Below, one piece after another: positions 51,001 to 63,000 of a stretch of 64,000 nt of DNA. The stretch comes from Octopus sinensis. Lineage: Eukaryota. The DNA is taken from contig NC_043024.1 of assembly GCF_006345805.1 (NCBI RefSeq), forward strand, positions 2,542,001 to 2,606,000. Reading direction: 5' to 3'. The position numbers were made by a program. Position 1 is the first letter of the stretch. Every line of letters begins with the position of its first letter.

Positions 51001-54000
51001 TTTCTGTTGCTTGAAATGCTTAGCAGTATTTCGTCTGTCTTTTTGTTCTGAGTTCAAATTCCACCGAGGTCGACTTTGCCTTTCATCCTTTCAGGGTCGA
51101 TAAATAAAGTACCAGTTTCACACTGGGGTAGATATAATCGACTTAATACCTTTGTCTGTCCTTGTTTGTGCCCTCTATGTTTAGCCCCCTAGTGGGCAAT
51201 AAAGAAATATATATTTCCATCAAGTGTAATCATTGTCAACATCTGAGGGGGCTGCCAATTCCTTTGCAATCCAGTTTTAATTAGAATACAGGATTGGTTT
51301 TCTTGCACCCATTCCAGGCAGTAAAGTACAGAAATGCTGCTAATAATCACACACCCAAAGAAAATCTTTTACAATTCTATAATCGATTTATATAAACAGG
51401 GTAATATTTCTTCTGTGTAGCATCTTAGTTTCATCTTAAAGAATATATCATATATATTCATGATGTGTTCGATGTAAAATCTTCATTTATGCTAAATATC
51501 CTCTCTGATACTCTGAAATAAAAAAGAAATAATATGAGATATAGAATATACTTGAAAAGTAAAGATTAAACAATGAAAATTTTATTACGCTTTTATACTG
51601 ATAAACTGGAGATATAAACCTTTAGCTGGCCAAAAAAACGTTAACACGTCAGTCTGACAAACAAACAAGGAGAATATAAGGTAGTCATGGGATGTGCTAA
51701 AAATAATAGTTAAATAGCTCTTAAATCATGCAGCAATTTTAAAAATTTTGTTTTGGTTTTTGCACAATCCTATGAATTAGAAATTCGCAAGAGTTTTCTA
51801 AAAATTCCCAAAAAGTTTTGAACCAACAAAGAATTTACAATTTAGATCTGCTGTTTGTTTGTTGAGCGAAGCGGTCTTCATCCCAGAGCTCGCAAGATGG
51901 AAGAAGTCGGAAACGCAGTCCTTTGCTATTCGTAAGACCCGCAGAAGAGAAAGCAGGTCAGCCCCCCCGACACCGAGAGCATCGACGGATGGACGAATGC
52001 GCATCCAGGCTTGGCAGTTGCGTAGGAAGTCGGGGGACAAGAAACAGGAAGAAAGAGTGAGAGAAAGTTGGGGCGAAAGAGTACAACAGGGGTTGCCACC
52101 ACCCTCTGCTGGAGCATCGTGGAGCTTTAGGTGTTTTCGCTCAATAAACACACTCAACGCCCAGTCTGAGAATCGAACCCGCGAGTCCGCTGCCCTAACC
52201 ACTGGGCCATTGCGCCTCCACTTACATCTGCTGTATATGAAATACCAGAAGTTATTGTGTTAAAAGAGCAAGGACTAATGTTTACTTGGAAACGGTTGAT
52301 GATGATGATATATATATATATATATTTATTGCCCACAAGGGGATATACAAAGAGGGGACAAACAAGACATAGGGATTAAGTCGATTACATCGAACCCAGT
52401 GCATAACTGGTACTTAATTTATCGACCCTGAAAGATGAAAGGCAAAGTCGACCTCAGTGGAATTTGAACTCATAACGTAAAGACACATGCATTTCGCCTG
52501 TCATGCTAATGTTGCTGCCAGCTCGCCACCTTTATATATATATAAAAGCAATTAAGATTCAAGTCAGTTCTAATGAATTCACTTGAATGCGGTACTTAAC
52601 TTAGATGCACCAGAAAACTATATGGTGTTAACCATACAGTAATGTGGGGTGATTATAAACGAGAAAGAAGCAACAAGAATGGATTAGTTTTTAGTACAAT
52701 TGTTTCATACAAAGACTGGCTTTATTAAAAGTTGCAAATATTGCAGCAGATAAAAGTGTCCCGTACTCATCAGCTAAAACACATATGAGTTCTCCAAACA
52801 TCTTAGTGGGTGAGGTTACACTCATGAAGTATCGGAGATAATTTTATAAAAAGCAGATTCAGGTTGTAAACAGACTTCCAAAGTTCTTTAATGACGATGC
52901 ACAGTCTTATCACAGGTTTTAAAAAAGCTTATTAGCTTCACAGAGAAGGTGAATCAATCCATAGTGTAGGTGCAAATATCCAGAGATATGAGGAGGTATT
53001 TCATACTCACAGACGATGAATCTATCCATGGTTAATCCACAATGAGGTGGGTATAATTTCCGGAGGGAAACGCAAGCTTTCAGGATGATAATGCACCAAT
53101 TCACACAGCTAAAGTTGTCACTGAATGGCACGAGGAACATTCATCAACCGTTTCAAAGTAAACATTAGTCCTTGCTCTTTTTAACACAATAACTTCTGGT
53201 ATTTCATATACAGCAGATCTTTCCTTCTATGTTTCCAACGAAGAGCTCTGCTCGAAATGTTAAACCCTCCTTCTTTTCTGAGCGTCCAATAATACTATAT
53301 TTGTTCCACGTCCTCGCGTTGTAGTGTTTTTTTTGTGCTTTCTTGTTTGGATTAACTATATATATATATATATATATTTAACTGATCGTGGCCGCTGCCA
53401 GACTCCCCCGGCACCTGTGCCGGTGGCATGTAAAAAACACCCACTACACTCGAGGAGTGGTTGGCGTTAGGAAGGGCATCCAGCTGTAGAAACACTGCCA
53501 GATCAGATTGGGCCTGGTGCAGCCTCCTGGTTTCCCAGACCCCGGTCGAACTGTCCAACCCGTGCTAGCAAATACATTCAAACAGGAGAGAAACCTTATC
53601 ACTGTGATATCTGTGGTAAATCATTCTCTCATAATCACAGCTTAAGTACTCACAAATACATTCACACAGGAGAGAAACCTTATCACTGTGATATCTGTGG
53701 TAAATCATTCTCTCATAATCACAGCTTAAGTACTCACAAATACATTCACACAGGAGAGAAACCTTATCAGTGTGATATCTGTGGTAAATCATTCTCTCAT
53801 AATCACAGCTTAAGTACTCACAAATACATTCACACAGGAGAGAAACCTTATCAGTGTGATATCTGTGGTAAATCATTCTCTCATAATCACAGCTTAAGTA
53901 CTCACAAATACATTCACACAGGAGAGAAACCTTATCAGTGTGATATCTGTGGTAAATCATTCTCTCATAATCACAGCTTAAGTACTCACAAATACATTCA

Positions 54001-60000: not shown

Positions 60001-63000
60001 ACATATATATGTATATACATATATATGCACATACACACACACAAAAGTTGGCGACTACAAAGGAATTTCACAAGAATCATATATATAGTGGAAGCCGCTT
60101 ATTGTGATCATTTCCGTACAGCATTGGCCAACACCTAACATATGACGTTAAACAAATATAAAGTCTGAACCAATTAATTTTGATAACAATAACCGGCTGA
60201 TAACGTTATCCGCTATTCCGATTGACCGCCACTCCATTCCTGCCCAGCCTACATCAATACACAACAAACTACGGCATTTCTATAAATCGCAGTATTTGCT
60301 ATACAACGTCTTCAATCAGATCGTATTCCTCTCCAATATATATACATATATATATAATAACTTACCCCTGATGCTTAATAAATAAATAAATATTTATTTA
60401 CTTTCGATTTCGTCTCCAAAGAATTGAGGAAACATGACAAGCCGGAAGTAAGGTGCGTCATGTGACTTAGACTCTTCAATATATGAAACCACAAAGAGTG
60501 CTGCTGACACAAAAGTGAAACTAAGAAGGAAGGGGGAACGTAATATTGTTGTTGACTATCACCATGGTTACTGTCTAAGCGGAAGGCTCATGGCTCGGTG
60601 GTTAGCGCATCGGGCTATCAATCGCGAGTTAGTGAGTTCGATTCCCTGGATCTTTTCGCTGTTCCACGTTGCCAGCGGAATTCTCGGCGACTCACGGGAA
60701 TTCCGGAGCAGGGGATTCAGTTGGTCTTACACCTGAATCCTCATCGGCGAACGACGGGGATCCACGATGTATAAAAATGTCTGTTTAGGTATAGATGGAA
60801 ATGGTGAGGATATTAAGAAATGTTAATAGCAAAATGTGGGAAATAAAAAATTGGAATGGTCAGTGAAAAGGAAAACGAAAAGTGAAAGAAATTATATAAC
60901 TTTGTTTAAGTAATTTTTTTTAGTCCTTCCTTTTTTCTGAGTTGTGCGTTAGATATGAAATTAGATATGAAATCATTCGTATCTAATTCCGGTCTCCTAA
61001 TAATTATCAGTTATAAAGTGGAATTGATCAAGGAATAAAGATTTGTATGAAACTATAGCAGGAAATAAACGGAATTTGCAAGACTGAACGGTTAATGGAC
61101 GAGGGGAAGTAACTCTTCCTTCAACAAAAGCCCTGAACATTTTTATATAGCTTCGAGTTTAAATGACAATTAATTAATTCAGCAAATTGTTAGAAAGGAT
61201 CACAAAAGTACAGCCCTCAAAATTACTGCAGGGCTTAATGAAACGCCTGAAGAACCCAGTTTCCACAAAAACTTTTGCTGGGAGCTGCACAAAGCCAGAT
61301 TTCAAGGAGGGCTGCAATCAGAAAACCACTACTTTCAAAAACAAACGTTGCAAAGCGTTTAGAGTGGAGTAAAAACCTACAGAAATGATCCCTAGAGCAG
61401 TGGAAGAATGTTATTTTCTAGGACGAGTCATCCATTACCTTATTTCCGACCACTGGCCGAGTATACGTGTGAAGAGAGCCAAAAGAAGCATTTGACCCAG
61501 ACTGCCTTCTTCCAACTGTTAAACATGGAGGAGGATCTGTAATGATCTTGAGTGCTATATCTTGGAAATCTGCCAGCCCAATGGTTCCCCTTCATGGCAG
61601 AATTAATAGTCAAGACTATTTAAGCATTTTATCTGATCAAATTTATCCTATGGTTGTGGATCTGCTTCTGGAGGGCAACGCAAGCTTTCAGGATGATAAT
61701 GCACCAATTCTCACAGCTAAAGTTGTCACTGAATGGCACGAGGAACATTCTTCAACCGTTTCAAAGTAAACATTAGTCCTTGCTCTTTTGAACACAATAA
61801 CTTCTGGTATTTCATATACAGCAGATCTTTCCTTCTCCTATGTTTCCGACAAAGAGCTCCGCTCGAAACGTTAAACCCTCCTCCTTTCCTGAGCGTCCAA
61901 TAATACTATATTTGTTCAGCGTCCACGCGTGGTTGTGTATTTTTTGTGCTTTCTTGTTTGGATTAACTATATATATATATATATATATATATATATAATG
62001 ATCGTGGCCGCTGGCAGACTCCCCTGGCACCTGTGCTGGTGGCATGTAAAAAACACCCACTACACTCGCGGAGTGGTTGGCGTTAGGAAGGGCATCCAGC
62101 TGTAGAAACACTGCCAGATCAGACTGGGCCTGGTGCAGCCTCCTGGCTTCCCAGACCCTGGTCGAACCGTCCAACCCATGCTAGCACGGAAAACGGATAT
62201 TAAATGATGATCATGATGATGATATATATGTACAAATTAAAATCCAGGAAACAGAGAAGTAGCATTAATATAGTTTATTCACTGCAAAAATTCAACATGT
62301 ACACTTACAGCTGTTTCGATTTTGCTCAAAAGAAATTCCAATAATTAAAACCTTTAATTGGGCAAAATCTCATCAAAAATTGAATTAAAGAAAAGACTAT
62401 TGTCTATAAAGTATACAACGTAGAGAAGAAAAGAGCTAACAATTCCAGTCTGTTATATATTTTGAGCATTGTTATCACTAGCGATATCAAGATATAACTT
62501 TGTATTTTATGTGTAGATGTATATATATAGATGTACATGTAATATGTACACATATATACATGCACTAGCACTATGACCCGGCAACGACGGGTCTTTCATG
62601 CTAGTTGGTAAATAAATGGTAGATAGTGAGTTATATTTCTCACTATAATTATTTTATAATGTATCGATTTAATTATTTTGTAATTTATCTATATCAGTTC
62701 AATCAATTTCTTTAACAAAGTTATAAACGTGATCACGTTGTTCTCTCATTCATATGATACTATTTTTACTATAACTCACAAATCTAACATTTATTTAATG
62801 CGGTTTCGATTCCCAGACCGGGCGTTGTGTGTGTTTATTGAGCGAATTTGGTAGACGGAAACTGAAAGATGCCTGTCGTATATGTGTATATATATATATA
62901 TGTATGTGTGGGTTTGTGTGTCTGTGTTTGTCCCCCTAGCTTTGCTTGTCAATCGATGCTGGTGTGTTTATGTCCCCGTCACTTAGTGGTTCAGCAAAAG

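What the first reader, a model, noticed from the sequence alone, without database searches (positions are those of the whole stretch)
53568..60467. Rearranged copy 6 kept its promoter and would transcribe a sense-antisense zinc-finger hairpin
Seen: the promoter, donor, acceptor and first four fingers are on the minus strand. At about 57580 (CACA microhomology) the remaining fingers are inverted (56981-57580 and 53568-54060). A minus-strand transcript would carry sense fingers immediately followed by about 1.1 kb of antisense finger sequence, complementary to all paralogues through the homogenised 84-bp repeat. Known: inverted pseudogenes can yield endo-siRNAs, and long dsRNA recruits ADAR. Inference: a family-wide trans-regulator or editing guide arising inside the cluster.
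Basis: partly seen in the sequence, partly recalled or inferred. Interest (0 to 1): 0.72.

Follow-up and report, generated by a model that had tools for sequence, protein, structure and literature searches.

The report
Rearranged zinc-finger gene with inverted fingers
One copy in a tandem cluster of zinc-finger genes has had the back part of its finger array flipped, trimmed and later split by a jumping element, so a transcript from its intact front end would fold back on itself only imperfectly; whether it is made or does anything is untested.

Summary
The structure is real in the sequence, with corrections. Copy 6 keeps a conserved promoter-like block, candidate splice sites, a start codon and five (not four) intact fingers on the minus strand. 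At a CACA overlap (57580-57583) it joins the family's 3' finger blocks in inverted orientation: T (56982-57583) and M (53569-54060).

The 1.1 kb of antisense fingers is not contiguous. A defective 2.9-kb LINE (54061-56985) sits precisely inside one finger between M and T. The last two fingers, about 1 kb of 3' flank and copy 5's whole promoter block are missing, so this is a complex rearrangement, not a clean inversion.

A minus-strand RNA is predicted to fold back (-445 versus -239 to -268 kcal/mol for the five other copies). The stem is poor: 72-81% complementary, with a longest perfect helix of 21 bp. It is no better than any paralogue's fingers would give.

Complementarity to the paralogues in trans is much stronger, with exact runs up to 122 nt.

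No expression, small-RNA or editing data could be consulted. The best reading is a real, probably neutral rearranged paralogue encoding at most a 183-aa, five-finger stub. A regulatory hairpin role stays speculative.

The parts
60059..60658 (-). Conserved promoter-like block. It holds a CRE-like/ETS-like motif (60433-60464) and two candidate GT donors (60401-60400 and 60365-60364).
   Evidence: The motif gives 5 matches in the window: copies 1, 2, 3, 4 and 6. Mean column identity is 99% over 271 nt across the 5 copies. The block is 97.5-100% identical to copies 3/4, against 89-93% further upstream. The promoter and donor roles are inferred, not shown.
58219..58221 (-). Candidate acceptor: AG at 58221-58220, with the exon starting at 58219.
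   Evidence: Invariant in 6 of 6 copies aligned. The same motif is located in all six copies. The polypyrimidine tract is weak. No RNA evidence.
57557..58108 (-). Truncated ORF of copy 6: ATG at 58108, 183 aa, stop just past the junction.
   Evidence: Pfam C2H2 families hit. Private changes are 2 synonymous and 3 non-synonymous, and all zinc ligands are intact.
57605..58003 (-). Five sense C2H2 fingers (F1-F5).
   Evidence: 97-98% identical to copies 5 and 3 over F1-F4.
57580..57583 (.). Right junction: 4-bp CACA shared by the inverted T homology and the F homology.
   Evidence: BLAST end points and the sequence itself.
56982..57583 (+). T block: the inverted 3' part of the family array, with partly degenerate fingers and an in-frame TGA.
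   Evidence: 93.6-93.8% identical to copies 2/3, 92.6% to copy 7 and 92.7% to copy 1, all in opposite orientation. Fingers listed. Sequence.
54061..56985 (+). Defective non-LTR retrotransposon (APE endonuclease + RT) inserted precisely inside one finger. The AAAA at its 3' end is ambiguous between tail, target duplication and finger.
   Evidence: Pfam Exo_endo_phos and RVT_1. Insertion point lies between CAAAA and CCTAAC of the family finger. It aligns to residues 52-915 of a 979-aa relative, with a frameshift near residue 613 and a 41-aa deletion. Unique in the window.
53569..54060 (+). M block: 5.8 near-identical 84-bp finger repeats, inverted.
   Evidence: TRF gives period 84, 5.8 copies and 98% matches. 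Up to 92% identical to mid-array fingers of copies 4 and 5 in opposite orientation.
53568..53569 (.). Left junction: spacer sequence joined to the middle of a finger, with about 2 bp of possible microhomology.
   Evidence: Spacer homology (equivalent to 61666-62186) ends at 53570 and finger homology starts at 53569. Sequences compared.
53057..53568 (+). Retained or copied piece of normal inter-unit spacer.
   Evidence: 93.3% identical to 61666-62186 and 90-96% to the same piece in four other units.
52545..53056 (.). 512-bp filler with no counterpart elsewhere in the window. It replaces the roughly 1.9 kb that holds the promoter block in other units.
   Evidence: No blastn or tblastx match to the normal spacer beyond the last ~43 nt.
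48970..51047 (-). Neighbouring copy 5 finger exon (654-aa ORF, 21 fingers). It has a conserved acceptor but no promoter block of its own.
   Evidence: ORF. Acceptor. No promoter motif between 50830 and 53568.

Best explanation
Copy 6 is a genuinely rearranged member of a fast-evolving tandem C2H2 zinc-finger cluster. A complex event, or a short series of events, flipped the 3' two-thirds of its finger array. Its joints carry 4 bp and about 2 bp of microhomology. The same rearrangement deleted the last two fingers, the 3' flank with the family's usual poly(A) hexamers, and the promoter block of the next copy downstream (copy 5).

A LINE later landed inside one finger of the inverted block and has since decayed.

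What is left is a conserved promoter-like block, splice signals and a 183-aa ORF with five intact fingers that stops just past the junction. If the promoter fires (inferred), the RNA carries 0.6 kb of antisense fingers in what becomes its 3' UTR. It is predicted to fold into an imperfect stem of about 350 bp.

That stem is a passive by-product of the 84-nt finger periodicity. It looks like a plausible substrate for promiscuous ADAR editing of the transcript itself and a poor one for Dicer. The most likely status is a neutral, decaying paralogue, not an evolved regulator.
For: Structure:
- Only this copy has plus-strand fingers.
- The inverted blocks are colinear with the family's 3' array and as diverged from the paralogues (about 93%) as the flanks are.
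- The LINE is inserted without loss of target sequence inside one finger, so M and T were one contiguous array when it landed.
- The LINE is defective.
- The arms flanking the right junction are not mirror images: 54 nt at 83%, 109 nt apart. This argues against a fold-back read artefact. The window holds no N.

Losses:
- No copy of the last two fingers or of the 3' flank lies between 50830 and 58003.
- The promoter motif is found 5 times, none of them for copy 5.

Hairpin:
- MFE is -444.9 against -239 to -268 kcal/mol in the 5 other copies, and 283 of 420 F bases pair with T.
- Duplex gain is -177.5 against a mean of -5.4 for 10 shuffles.

Passive origin:
- The F regions of copies 2, 3 and 5 gain -173 to -190 with this antisense T.
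- This copy's F gains -169 to -187 with the antisense T of copies 1, 2, 3 and 7.

Family decay:
- All six complete ORFs stop before or inside the T block.
- Zinc-ligand losses occur in copies 1, 2, 3 and 4.
Against: - The 5' half of copy 6 is not visibly decayed. It has 2 synonymous and 3 non-synonymous private changes and all ligands intact. Its promoter-like block is 97.5-100% identical to intact copies. This would also fit retention under selection, or recent gene conversion.
- Complementarity to the paralogues is extensive. M shares 219-266 of its 474 21-mers with each paralogue and T shares 52-280 of 582, with exact runs up to 122 nt. Predicted trans duplex gains are -454 to -724 kcal/mol. 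A trans effect is therefore physically possible.
- No reads, RNA or population data were available, so neither the reality of the joints nor neutrality is shown.
Confidence: 0.6

Rival explanations
1. The locus is a nascent hairpin-RNA or antisense regulator. Its minus-strand transcript yields endo-siRNAs or recruits ADAR, and so acts on the whole paralogue family.
For: - A predicted fold-back is absent from the other copies.
- Every paralogue shares many exact 21-mers with M (219-266 of 474, all within ORFs) and with T (52-280 of 582).
- The promoter-like block is retained.
- Hairpin-RNA loci born from inverted fragments of their target genes, some inside paralogue clusters, are documented in Drosophila simulans (PMC10317233, passages).
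Against: - The stem is 72-81% complementary, with a longest perfect helix of 21 bp. The cited hpRNA clusters are described as near-perfect.
- There is no sign of co-adaptation between the arms.
- M is separated from T by a 2.9-kb LINE holding AATAAA at 56114, 56013 and 55822. ATTAAA lies at 57075 inside T.
- Only 52-109 of T's 582 21-mers fall in paralogue ORFs.
- Antisense-guided editing was not detected in the data set of PMC13445718 (abstract).
- No expression data.
Confidence: 0.07
2. Assembly artefact. One or both inversion joints are misjoins inside a repetitive cluster.
For: The region is a tandem cluster of 84-bp repeats in units about 93% alike, which is hard to assemble. Several unusual joints lie within 5 kb. 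No reads could be examined.
Against: - The joints share only 4 bp and about 2 bp. There is no long repeat overlap that could mislead an assembler.
- The arms at the right joint are not a perfect palindrome.
- The left joint abuts unique spacer sequence.
- The LINE insertion inside the inverted block is precise and the element has decayed, as expected of real old DNA.
- The window has no gaps.
Confidence: 0.1
3. Fused transcription unit. The rearrangement removed copy 5's promoter and copy 6's 3' end, so copy 6's promoter now serves copy 5, either by read-through or by splicing of exon 1 to copy 5's acceptor at 51047. The inverted block and the LINE would then be intronic, or form an alternative terminal exon.
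For: - No promoter motif lies between copy 5 and the M block, whereas copies 1-4 and 6 each have one.
- Copy 5 keeps the conserved acceptor and a 654-aa, 21-finger ORF.
- The family's usual poly(A) hexamers, about 460-480 nt after the last finger, are missing from copy 6. The next such pair on the minus strand is copy 5's own.
Against: - Minus-strand poly(A) hexamers exist at 57075, 56114, 56013, 55822, 52892 and 52726 and could end the transcript earlier.
- Copy 5 may use an unrecognised promoter, for example in the unique 512-bp filler, or may simply be silent.
- No RNA evidence.
Confidence: 0.2

Closest known systems
Drosophila hairpin-RNA (hpRNA) loci that arise from inverted fragments of their target genes (PMC10317233, passages read)
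   Same: Inverted gene-derived arms lie in one putative transcription unit, inside or beside a cluster of the paralogues they match. SiRNA-sized stretches are fully complementary to those paralogues.
   Different: The arms here are paralogous fingers only 72-81% complementary, not a near-perfect inverted duplicate. No small-RNA or Dicer evidence. The organism is unknown.
Pseudogene-derived endo-siRNAs from inverted-repeat pseudogenes: mouse oocytes (recalled, no paper seen) and human psiPPM1K (PMC3616710, start of abstract in search listing only)
   Same: A rearranged or partly dead gene copy whose transcript contains sequence antisense to functional relatives.
   Different: Here the antisense part follows a still-open five-finger ORF driven by the gene's own promoter-like block. 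Small-RNA production is untested.
Intramolecular inverted-repeat ADAR substrates (PMC13445718 abstract; PMC9989829 passages)
   Same: A long, imperfect intramolecular stem formed by young repeats in opposite orientation within one transcript.
   Different: The repeats are coding zinc-finger units, not transposon copies. Editing has not been observed.
MicroRNA targeting of the repeated finger-coding sequence of C2H2 genes. This is recalled from the literature. Only the phrase 'repeat-rich coding' was seen, occurring once in each of the 8 papers listed of 19 found.
   Same: The idea that one small RNA can hit many paralogues through the repeated finger or linker coding sequence.
   Different: Those are canonical miRNAs encoded elsewhere, not an inverted gene fragment inside the cluster.
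Microhomology-mediated complex rearrangements (template-switching models; recalled, no paper consulted)
   Same: Several joints within 5 kb, 2-4 bp microhomology, an inverted segment, deletions and a short filler of unknown origin.
   Different: The mechanism cannot be told from one sequence. Stepwise inversion and deletions would look the same.

Membership tests
C2H2 zinc-finger gene (tandem poly-finger type) | Repeated C-x2-C-x12-H-x3-H units with TGEKP-like linkers | tested here: met
   Five units on the minus strand at 57605-58003 and nine on the plus strand. Pfam zf-C2H2 and zf-H2C2_2 hits.
C2H2 zinc-finger gene (tandem poly-finger type) | Intact full-length array with the family's own 3' end | tested here: not met
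   The ORF stops after 183 aa, 9 codons past the junction. The last two fingers and the 3' flank are absent.
hpRNA / endo-siRNA hairpin locus | Inverted-repeat arms on one strand able to form a long duplex | tested here: met
   MFE -444.9 against -239 to -268 kcal/mol in the controls. 283 of 420 F bases pair with T.
hpRNA / endo-siRNA hairpin locus | Near-perfect complementarity of the arms | tested here: not met
   72-81%. Longest perfect helix 21 bp, 45 helices with a mean of 6.3 bp.
hpRNA / endo-siRNA hairpin locus | SiRNA-length stretches fully complementary to target genes | tested here: met
   21-mers shared with each paralogue: M 219-266 of 474, T 52-280 of 582.
hpRNA / endo-siRNA hairpin locus | Dicer-dependent small RNAs and a defined primary transcript | not testable with these tools
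   No RNA or small-RNA data for this genome in any tool.
ADAR substrate | Clustered A-to-G differences between RNA and DNA over the stem | not testable with these tools
   No RNA-seq available. Only the predicted stem exists.
Non-LTR retrotransposon (LINE) | APE-type endonuclease followed by a reverse transcriptase | tested here: met
   Pfam PF03372, PF14529 and PF00078. 60% and 52% identity to a 979-aa EN-RT protein.
Non-LTR retrotransposon (LINE) | Uninterrupted ORF (an autonomous copy) | tested here: not met
   Frameshift near residue 613, a 41-aa deletion, and alignment starting only at residue 52 of the relative.
Simple two-break inversion | Both joints reciprocal, with no sequence lost | tested here: not met
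   T is joined straight to F5, without the last two fingers or the 3' flank. M is joined to the spacer at the equivalent of 62186.

The most novel reading that the evidence does not exclude
The rearrangement created a new compound transcription unit. Copy 6's promoter drives a five-finger stub, an embedded sense-antisense finger module, and the promoterless copy 5 downstream. The fold-back, or its pairing with paralogue mRNAs, would then feed ADAR or RNAi and tune the whole zinc-finger cluster. That would be a hairpin-RNA-like regulator caught at birth inside a transcription-factor family.
Probability: 0.05. Interest if true: 0.7.

Novelty: new member of a known kind. Interest (0 to 1): 0.3.

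Why it matters
Tandem zinc-finger clusters turn over quickly, and this locus shows one route in detail: microhomology joints, inversion, loss of a neighbour's promoter, and a later LINE hit. If the retained promoter is active, the locus would be a natural test of whether an inverted fragment of a repeated coding array can start to act on its own family through dsRNA. That origin is documented for hairpin RNAs in flies but not, as far as my searches show, for zinc-finger clusters. One search found 29 papers, of which the 10 listed were unrelated by title. A cephalopod C2H2 paper contained no occurrence of 'pseudogene', 'antisense' or 'RNA editing'. As it stands, the sequence supports only the structural story.

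Tried and rejected
- Organism and annotation. Three protein searches found no close named relative. The N-terminal part of copy 5 gave only generic finger hits, 51% identity at best. The LINE ORF's best hits were unnamed. The finger region of copy 5 gave 7999 generic hits at 60% identity or less. The protein atlas gave no usable taxon. The organism is therefore not identified by any tool. My impression that the SINE-like repeats resemble octopus repeats is recall only.\n- No tRNA genes and no Rfam family in the window. This removes the idea that a tRNA gene explains the conservation beside the promoter-like block.\n- Pfam found nothing in the ORF at 61473-61769, which I had taken for a transposase remnant.\n- The 512-bp filler (52545-53056) has no nucleotide or translated similarity to the normal spacer. 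Its origin is unknown.\n- The T-block tree was considered as a way to tell whose T was inverted.
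Full report
WHAT THE WINDOW IS

The window has no N. It holds seven tandem units of one C2H2 zinc-finger family, 9.5-13 kb apart. All their finger arrays are on the minus strand, except two plus-strand blocks inside the sixth unit.

Nothing suggests the window is human. GC content is 34-47%. The best named protein hits are 60% identical or less and spread across animals. The LINE's nearest relatives are unnamed. The organism was not identified. An octopus origin is only my recollection of the SINE-like repeats, plus one 51% hit.

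My gene model has a non-coding first exon, and the whole ORF lies in the finger exon.

CHECK OF THE OBSERVATION

On the minus strand, copy 6 has:
- the family's promoter-like motif at 60433-60464, one of 5 matches in the window (none expected by chance);
- a block around it that is 99% identical among the five copies that have it, and 97.5-100% identical to copies 3 and 4, against 89-93% further upstream;
- two conserved GT candidates, at 60401 and 60365;
- the conserved AG at 58221-58220 and the ATG at 58108, shared by 6 of 6 copies;
- five complete fingers at 57605-58003, not four.

The plus-strand blocks are at 56982-57583 (T) and 53569-54060 (M). T is 93.6-93.8% identical, in opposite orientation, to the 3' finger region of copies 2 and 3. 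The homologies from the two sides overlap in CACA at 57580-57583.

So the core observation stands. 'Promoter', 'donor' and 'acceptor' remain inferences from conservation.

ANATOMY

Read on the plus strand, M then T are colinear with the 3' part of the family array: homogeneous HNH-type fingers, then the QNQ, LNHH, QSY and QSDA fingers, a degenerate stretch, then the LNHHLAK and QSDVLIK fingers.

Between M and T lies a 2.9-kb non-LTR retrotransposon with endonuclease and RT domains. It is inserted exactly between CAAAA and CCTAAC of one finger, with no target sequence lost. M and T were therefore one contiguous inverted array when it landed.

The element is defective. It aligns to residues 52-915 of a 979-aa relative, with a frameshift near residue 613 and a 41-aa deletion. 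It occurs nowhere else in the window.

The rearrangement is not a clean inversion:
- T ends at the QSDVLIK finger and is joined straight to the first Cys codon after F5.
- The family's last two fingers and about 1 kb of 3' flank are found nowhere between 50830 and 58003.
- On the left, M starts in mid-finger, directly after a 514-bp piece of normal spacer (equivalent to 61666-62186), with about 2 bp of possible microhomology.
- Left of that piece is a 512-bp filler with no counterpart in the window.
- The filler replaces the roughly 1.9 kb that carries the promoter block in other units.

Copy 5 therefore has a conserved acceptor and a 654-aa, 21-finger ORF but no promoter block of its own.

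WOULD A HAIRPIN FORM?

The minus-strand RNA from the candidate exon start to the end of T (1239 nt) folds to -444.9 kcal/mol. The same-length stretch of the five other copies gives -239 to -268.

In the minimum-energy structure:
- 283 of 420 F bases pair with T;
- the stem joins 57601-57955 to 56996-57348 around a loop of about 250 nt;
- there are 45 uninterrupted helices averaging 6.3 bp, the longest being 21, 17, 17, 17 and 14 bp.

Gap-free arm complementarity is 72-81% for T against F and about 80% for M against F.

Co-folding gives the following gains:

| Pair | Gain (kcal/mol) |
|---|---|
| F with antisense T | -177.5 |
| F with 10 shuffles of T | mean -5.4 (range -10.9 to 0) |
| F of copies 2, 3 and 5 with this antisense T | -173 to -190 |
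| This F with the antisense T of copies 1, 2, 3 and 7 | -169 to -187 |
| F with antisense M | -246 |

The fold-back is therefore real as a prediction. It is also the generic consequence of the 84-nt finger periodicity, with no sign of co-adaptation between the arms.

COMPLEMENTARITY IN TRANS

This is much stronger than the cis stem.
- Each paralogue's sense strand shares 219-266 of M's 474 21-mers. For the six copies with a defined ORF, essentially all of these lie inside it (223 of 227 in copy 2).
- Each shares 52-280 of T's 582 21-mers, of which 52-109 lie inside ORFs.
- The longest exact runs are 122 nt for T (copy 1) and 69 nt for M.
- Predicted duplex gains are -625 to -724 kcal/mol for antisense T with the sense T of copies 1, 2, 3 and 7. 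They are -454 to -533 for antisense M with paralogue ORF stretches.

In all six complete copies the ORF stops before or inside the T block. T is therefore mostly decayed or 3'-UTR-like sequence in the family.

HOW FAR WOULD THE TRANSCRIPT RUN?

The ORF ends 9 codons past the junction, at 183 aa. Copy 6 lacks the family's usual ATTAAA/AATAAA pair, which lies about 460-480 nt after the last finger. Minus-strand hexamers after the junction are ATTAAA at 57075 (inside T), AATAAA at 56114, 56013 and 55822 (inside the antisense LINE), then 52892 and 52726.

Carrying all 1.1 kb of antisense fingers would thus need read-through of a 2.9-kb LINE and three AATAAA hexamers. Hexamers are weak predictors, so this is only a caution.

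INTERPRETATION

The best-supported reading (0.6) is a real complex rearrangement in a cluster that is decaying and turning over. Copies 1-4 carry zinc-ligand losses and all copies have premature stops. The rearrangement left a possibly expressed five-finger stub with an antisense-finger 3' UTR.

The retained 5' half is not visibly degraded: 2 synonymous and 3 non-synonymous private changes, with all ligands intact. That fits a recent event, gene conversion or selection, and cannot tell them apart.

The rivals are:
- misassembly (0.1), argued against by the 2-4-bp joints, the non-palindromic arms and the precise insertion of a decayed LINE;
- a fused copy-6/copy-5 transcription unit (0.2), which is compatible with the main reading.

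COMPARISON WITH WHAT IS KNOWN

- Hairpin-RNA loci derived from inverted fragments of their targets, some lying among paralogues, are described in Drosophila simulans. Their arms can be near-perfect (PMC10317233, passages). This locus shares the architecture but fails the near-perfect-duplex feature.
- ADAR editing is reported to depend on intramolecular structure rather than natural antisense pairing in the data set of PMC13445718 (abstract). PMC9989829 reports sense-antisense editing in some lineages (passages).
- A 2025 paper on cephalopod C2H2 expansions contains no occurrence of 'pseudogene', 'antisense', 'exon' or 'RNA editing' (PMC12513265, term search).
- PMC3616710, PMC5398296, PMC10547256 and PMC6242934 were seen only as search listings.
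- Mouse-oocyte pseudogene siRNAs, miRNA targeting of repeated finger-coding sequence and template-switch rearrangement models are cited from memory only.

LIMITS

There are no genomic reads, no RNA data of any kind, no related genomes and no identified organism. No supplementary file was opened, though Table S3 of PMC9989829 may list octopus sense-antisense editing figures.

Noticed in passing
window 50830-53568 (between copy 5 and the M block): Copy 5 has an intact 654-aa, 21-finger ORF and the conserved acceptor, but no promoter-like block. The motif occurs only at 6996, 16589, 30088, 43092 and 60433. A 512-bp filler unique in the window (52545-53056) sits where the promoter block should be.
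   Followed up: partly
window, ORFs of copies 1-5 (stops ending at 2661, 13315, 22831, 35694, 48970): Every complete copy's ORF ends before or inside the terminal T-type fingers. Copies 2 and 3 share the same in-frame stop, with further fingers continuing in frame after it. The 3' fingers of the family therefore look like decaying or untranslated remnants.
   Followed up: partly
window, first three fingers of copies 1-4: Zinc-ligand substitutions are present: C39S and H56P in copy 1, H56P in copy 4, and H112N in copies 2 and 3. The rearranged copy 6 keeps all ligands in its five fingers.
   Followed up: partly
window 53569-54060: Six finger units are 98% identical to one another (period 84, 5.8 copies). 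They carry a recognition helix (HNHSLST) found in no other copy. This is a private, recent tandem amplification inside the inverted and presumably non-coding block.
   Followed up: partly
window 58230-58330 and equivalents; 62840-63160 and equivalents; 53400-53568 / 62020-62186: SINE-like repeats lie directly upstream of the candidate acceptor, directly downstream of the last finger, and at the left breakpoint. ARAGORN and Rfam found no tRNA or known RNA family. The candidate acceptor may be repeat-derived.
   Followed up: partly
window 61473-61769 (+) and the same piece in other units: A 98-aa open frame in the inter-unit spacer looked to me like a transposase remnant, but Pfam gave no hit. 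It is repeated with each unit.
   Followed up: partly
window 12576-15003 versus 22092-25188: Copies 2 and 3 share the same terminal stop and nearly identical T blocks, but differ by 8 fingers (18 against 26). This shows array-length change after a recent unit duplication.
   Followed up: no
window 59940-60060, 52530-52545 and many other sites: TA and TG/CA microsatellites sit at the edges of several homology blocks. One of these edges is the right end of copy 5's upstream homology at 52544, which may be a fragile point.
   Followed up: no
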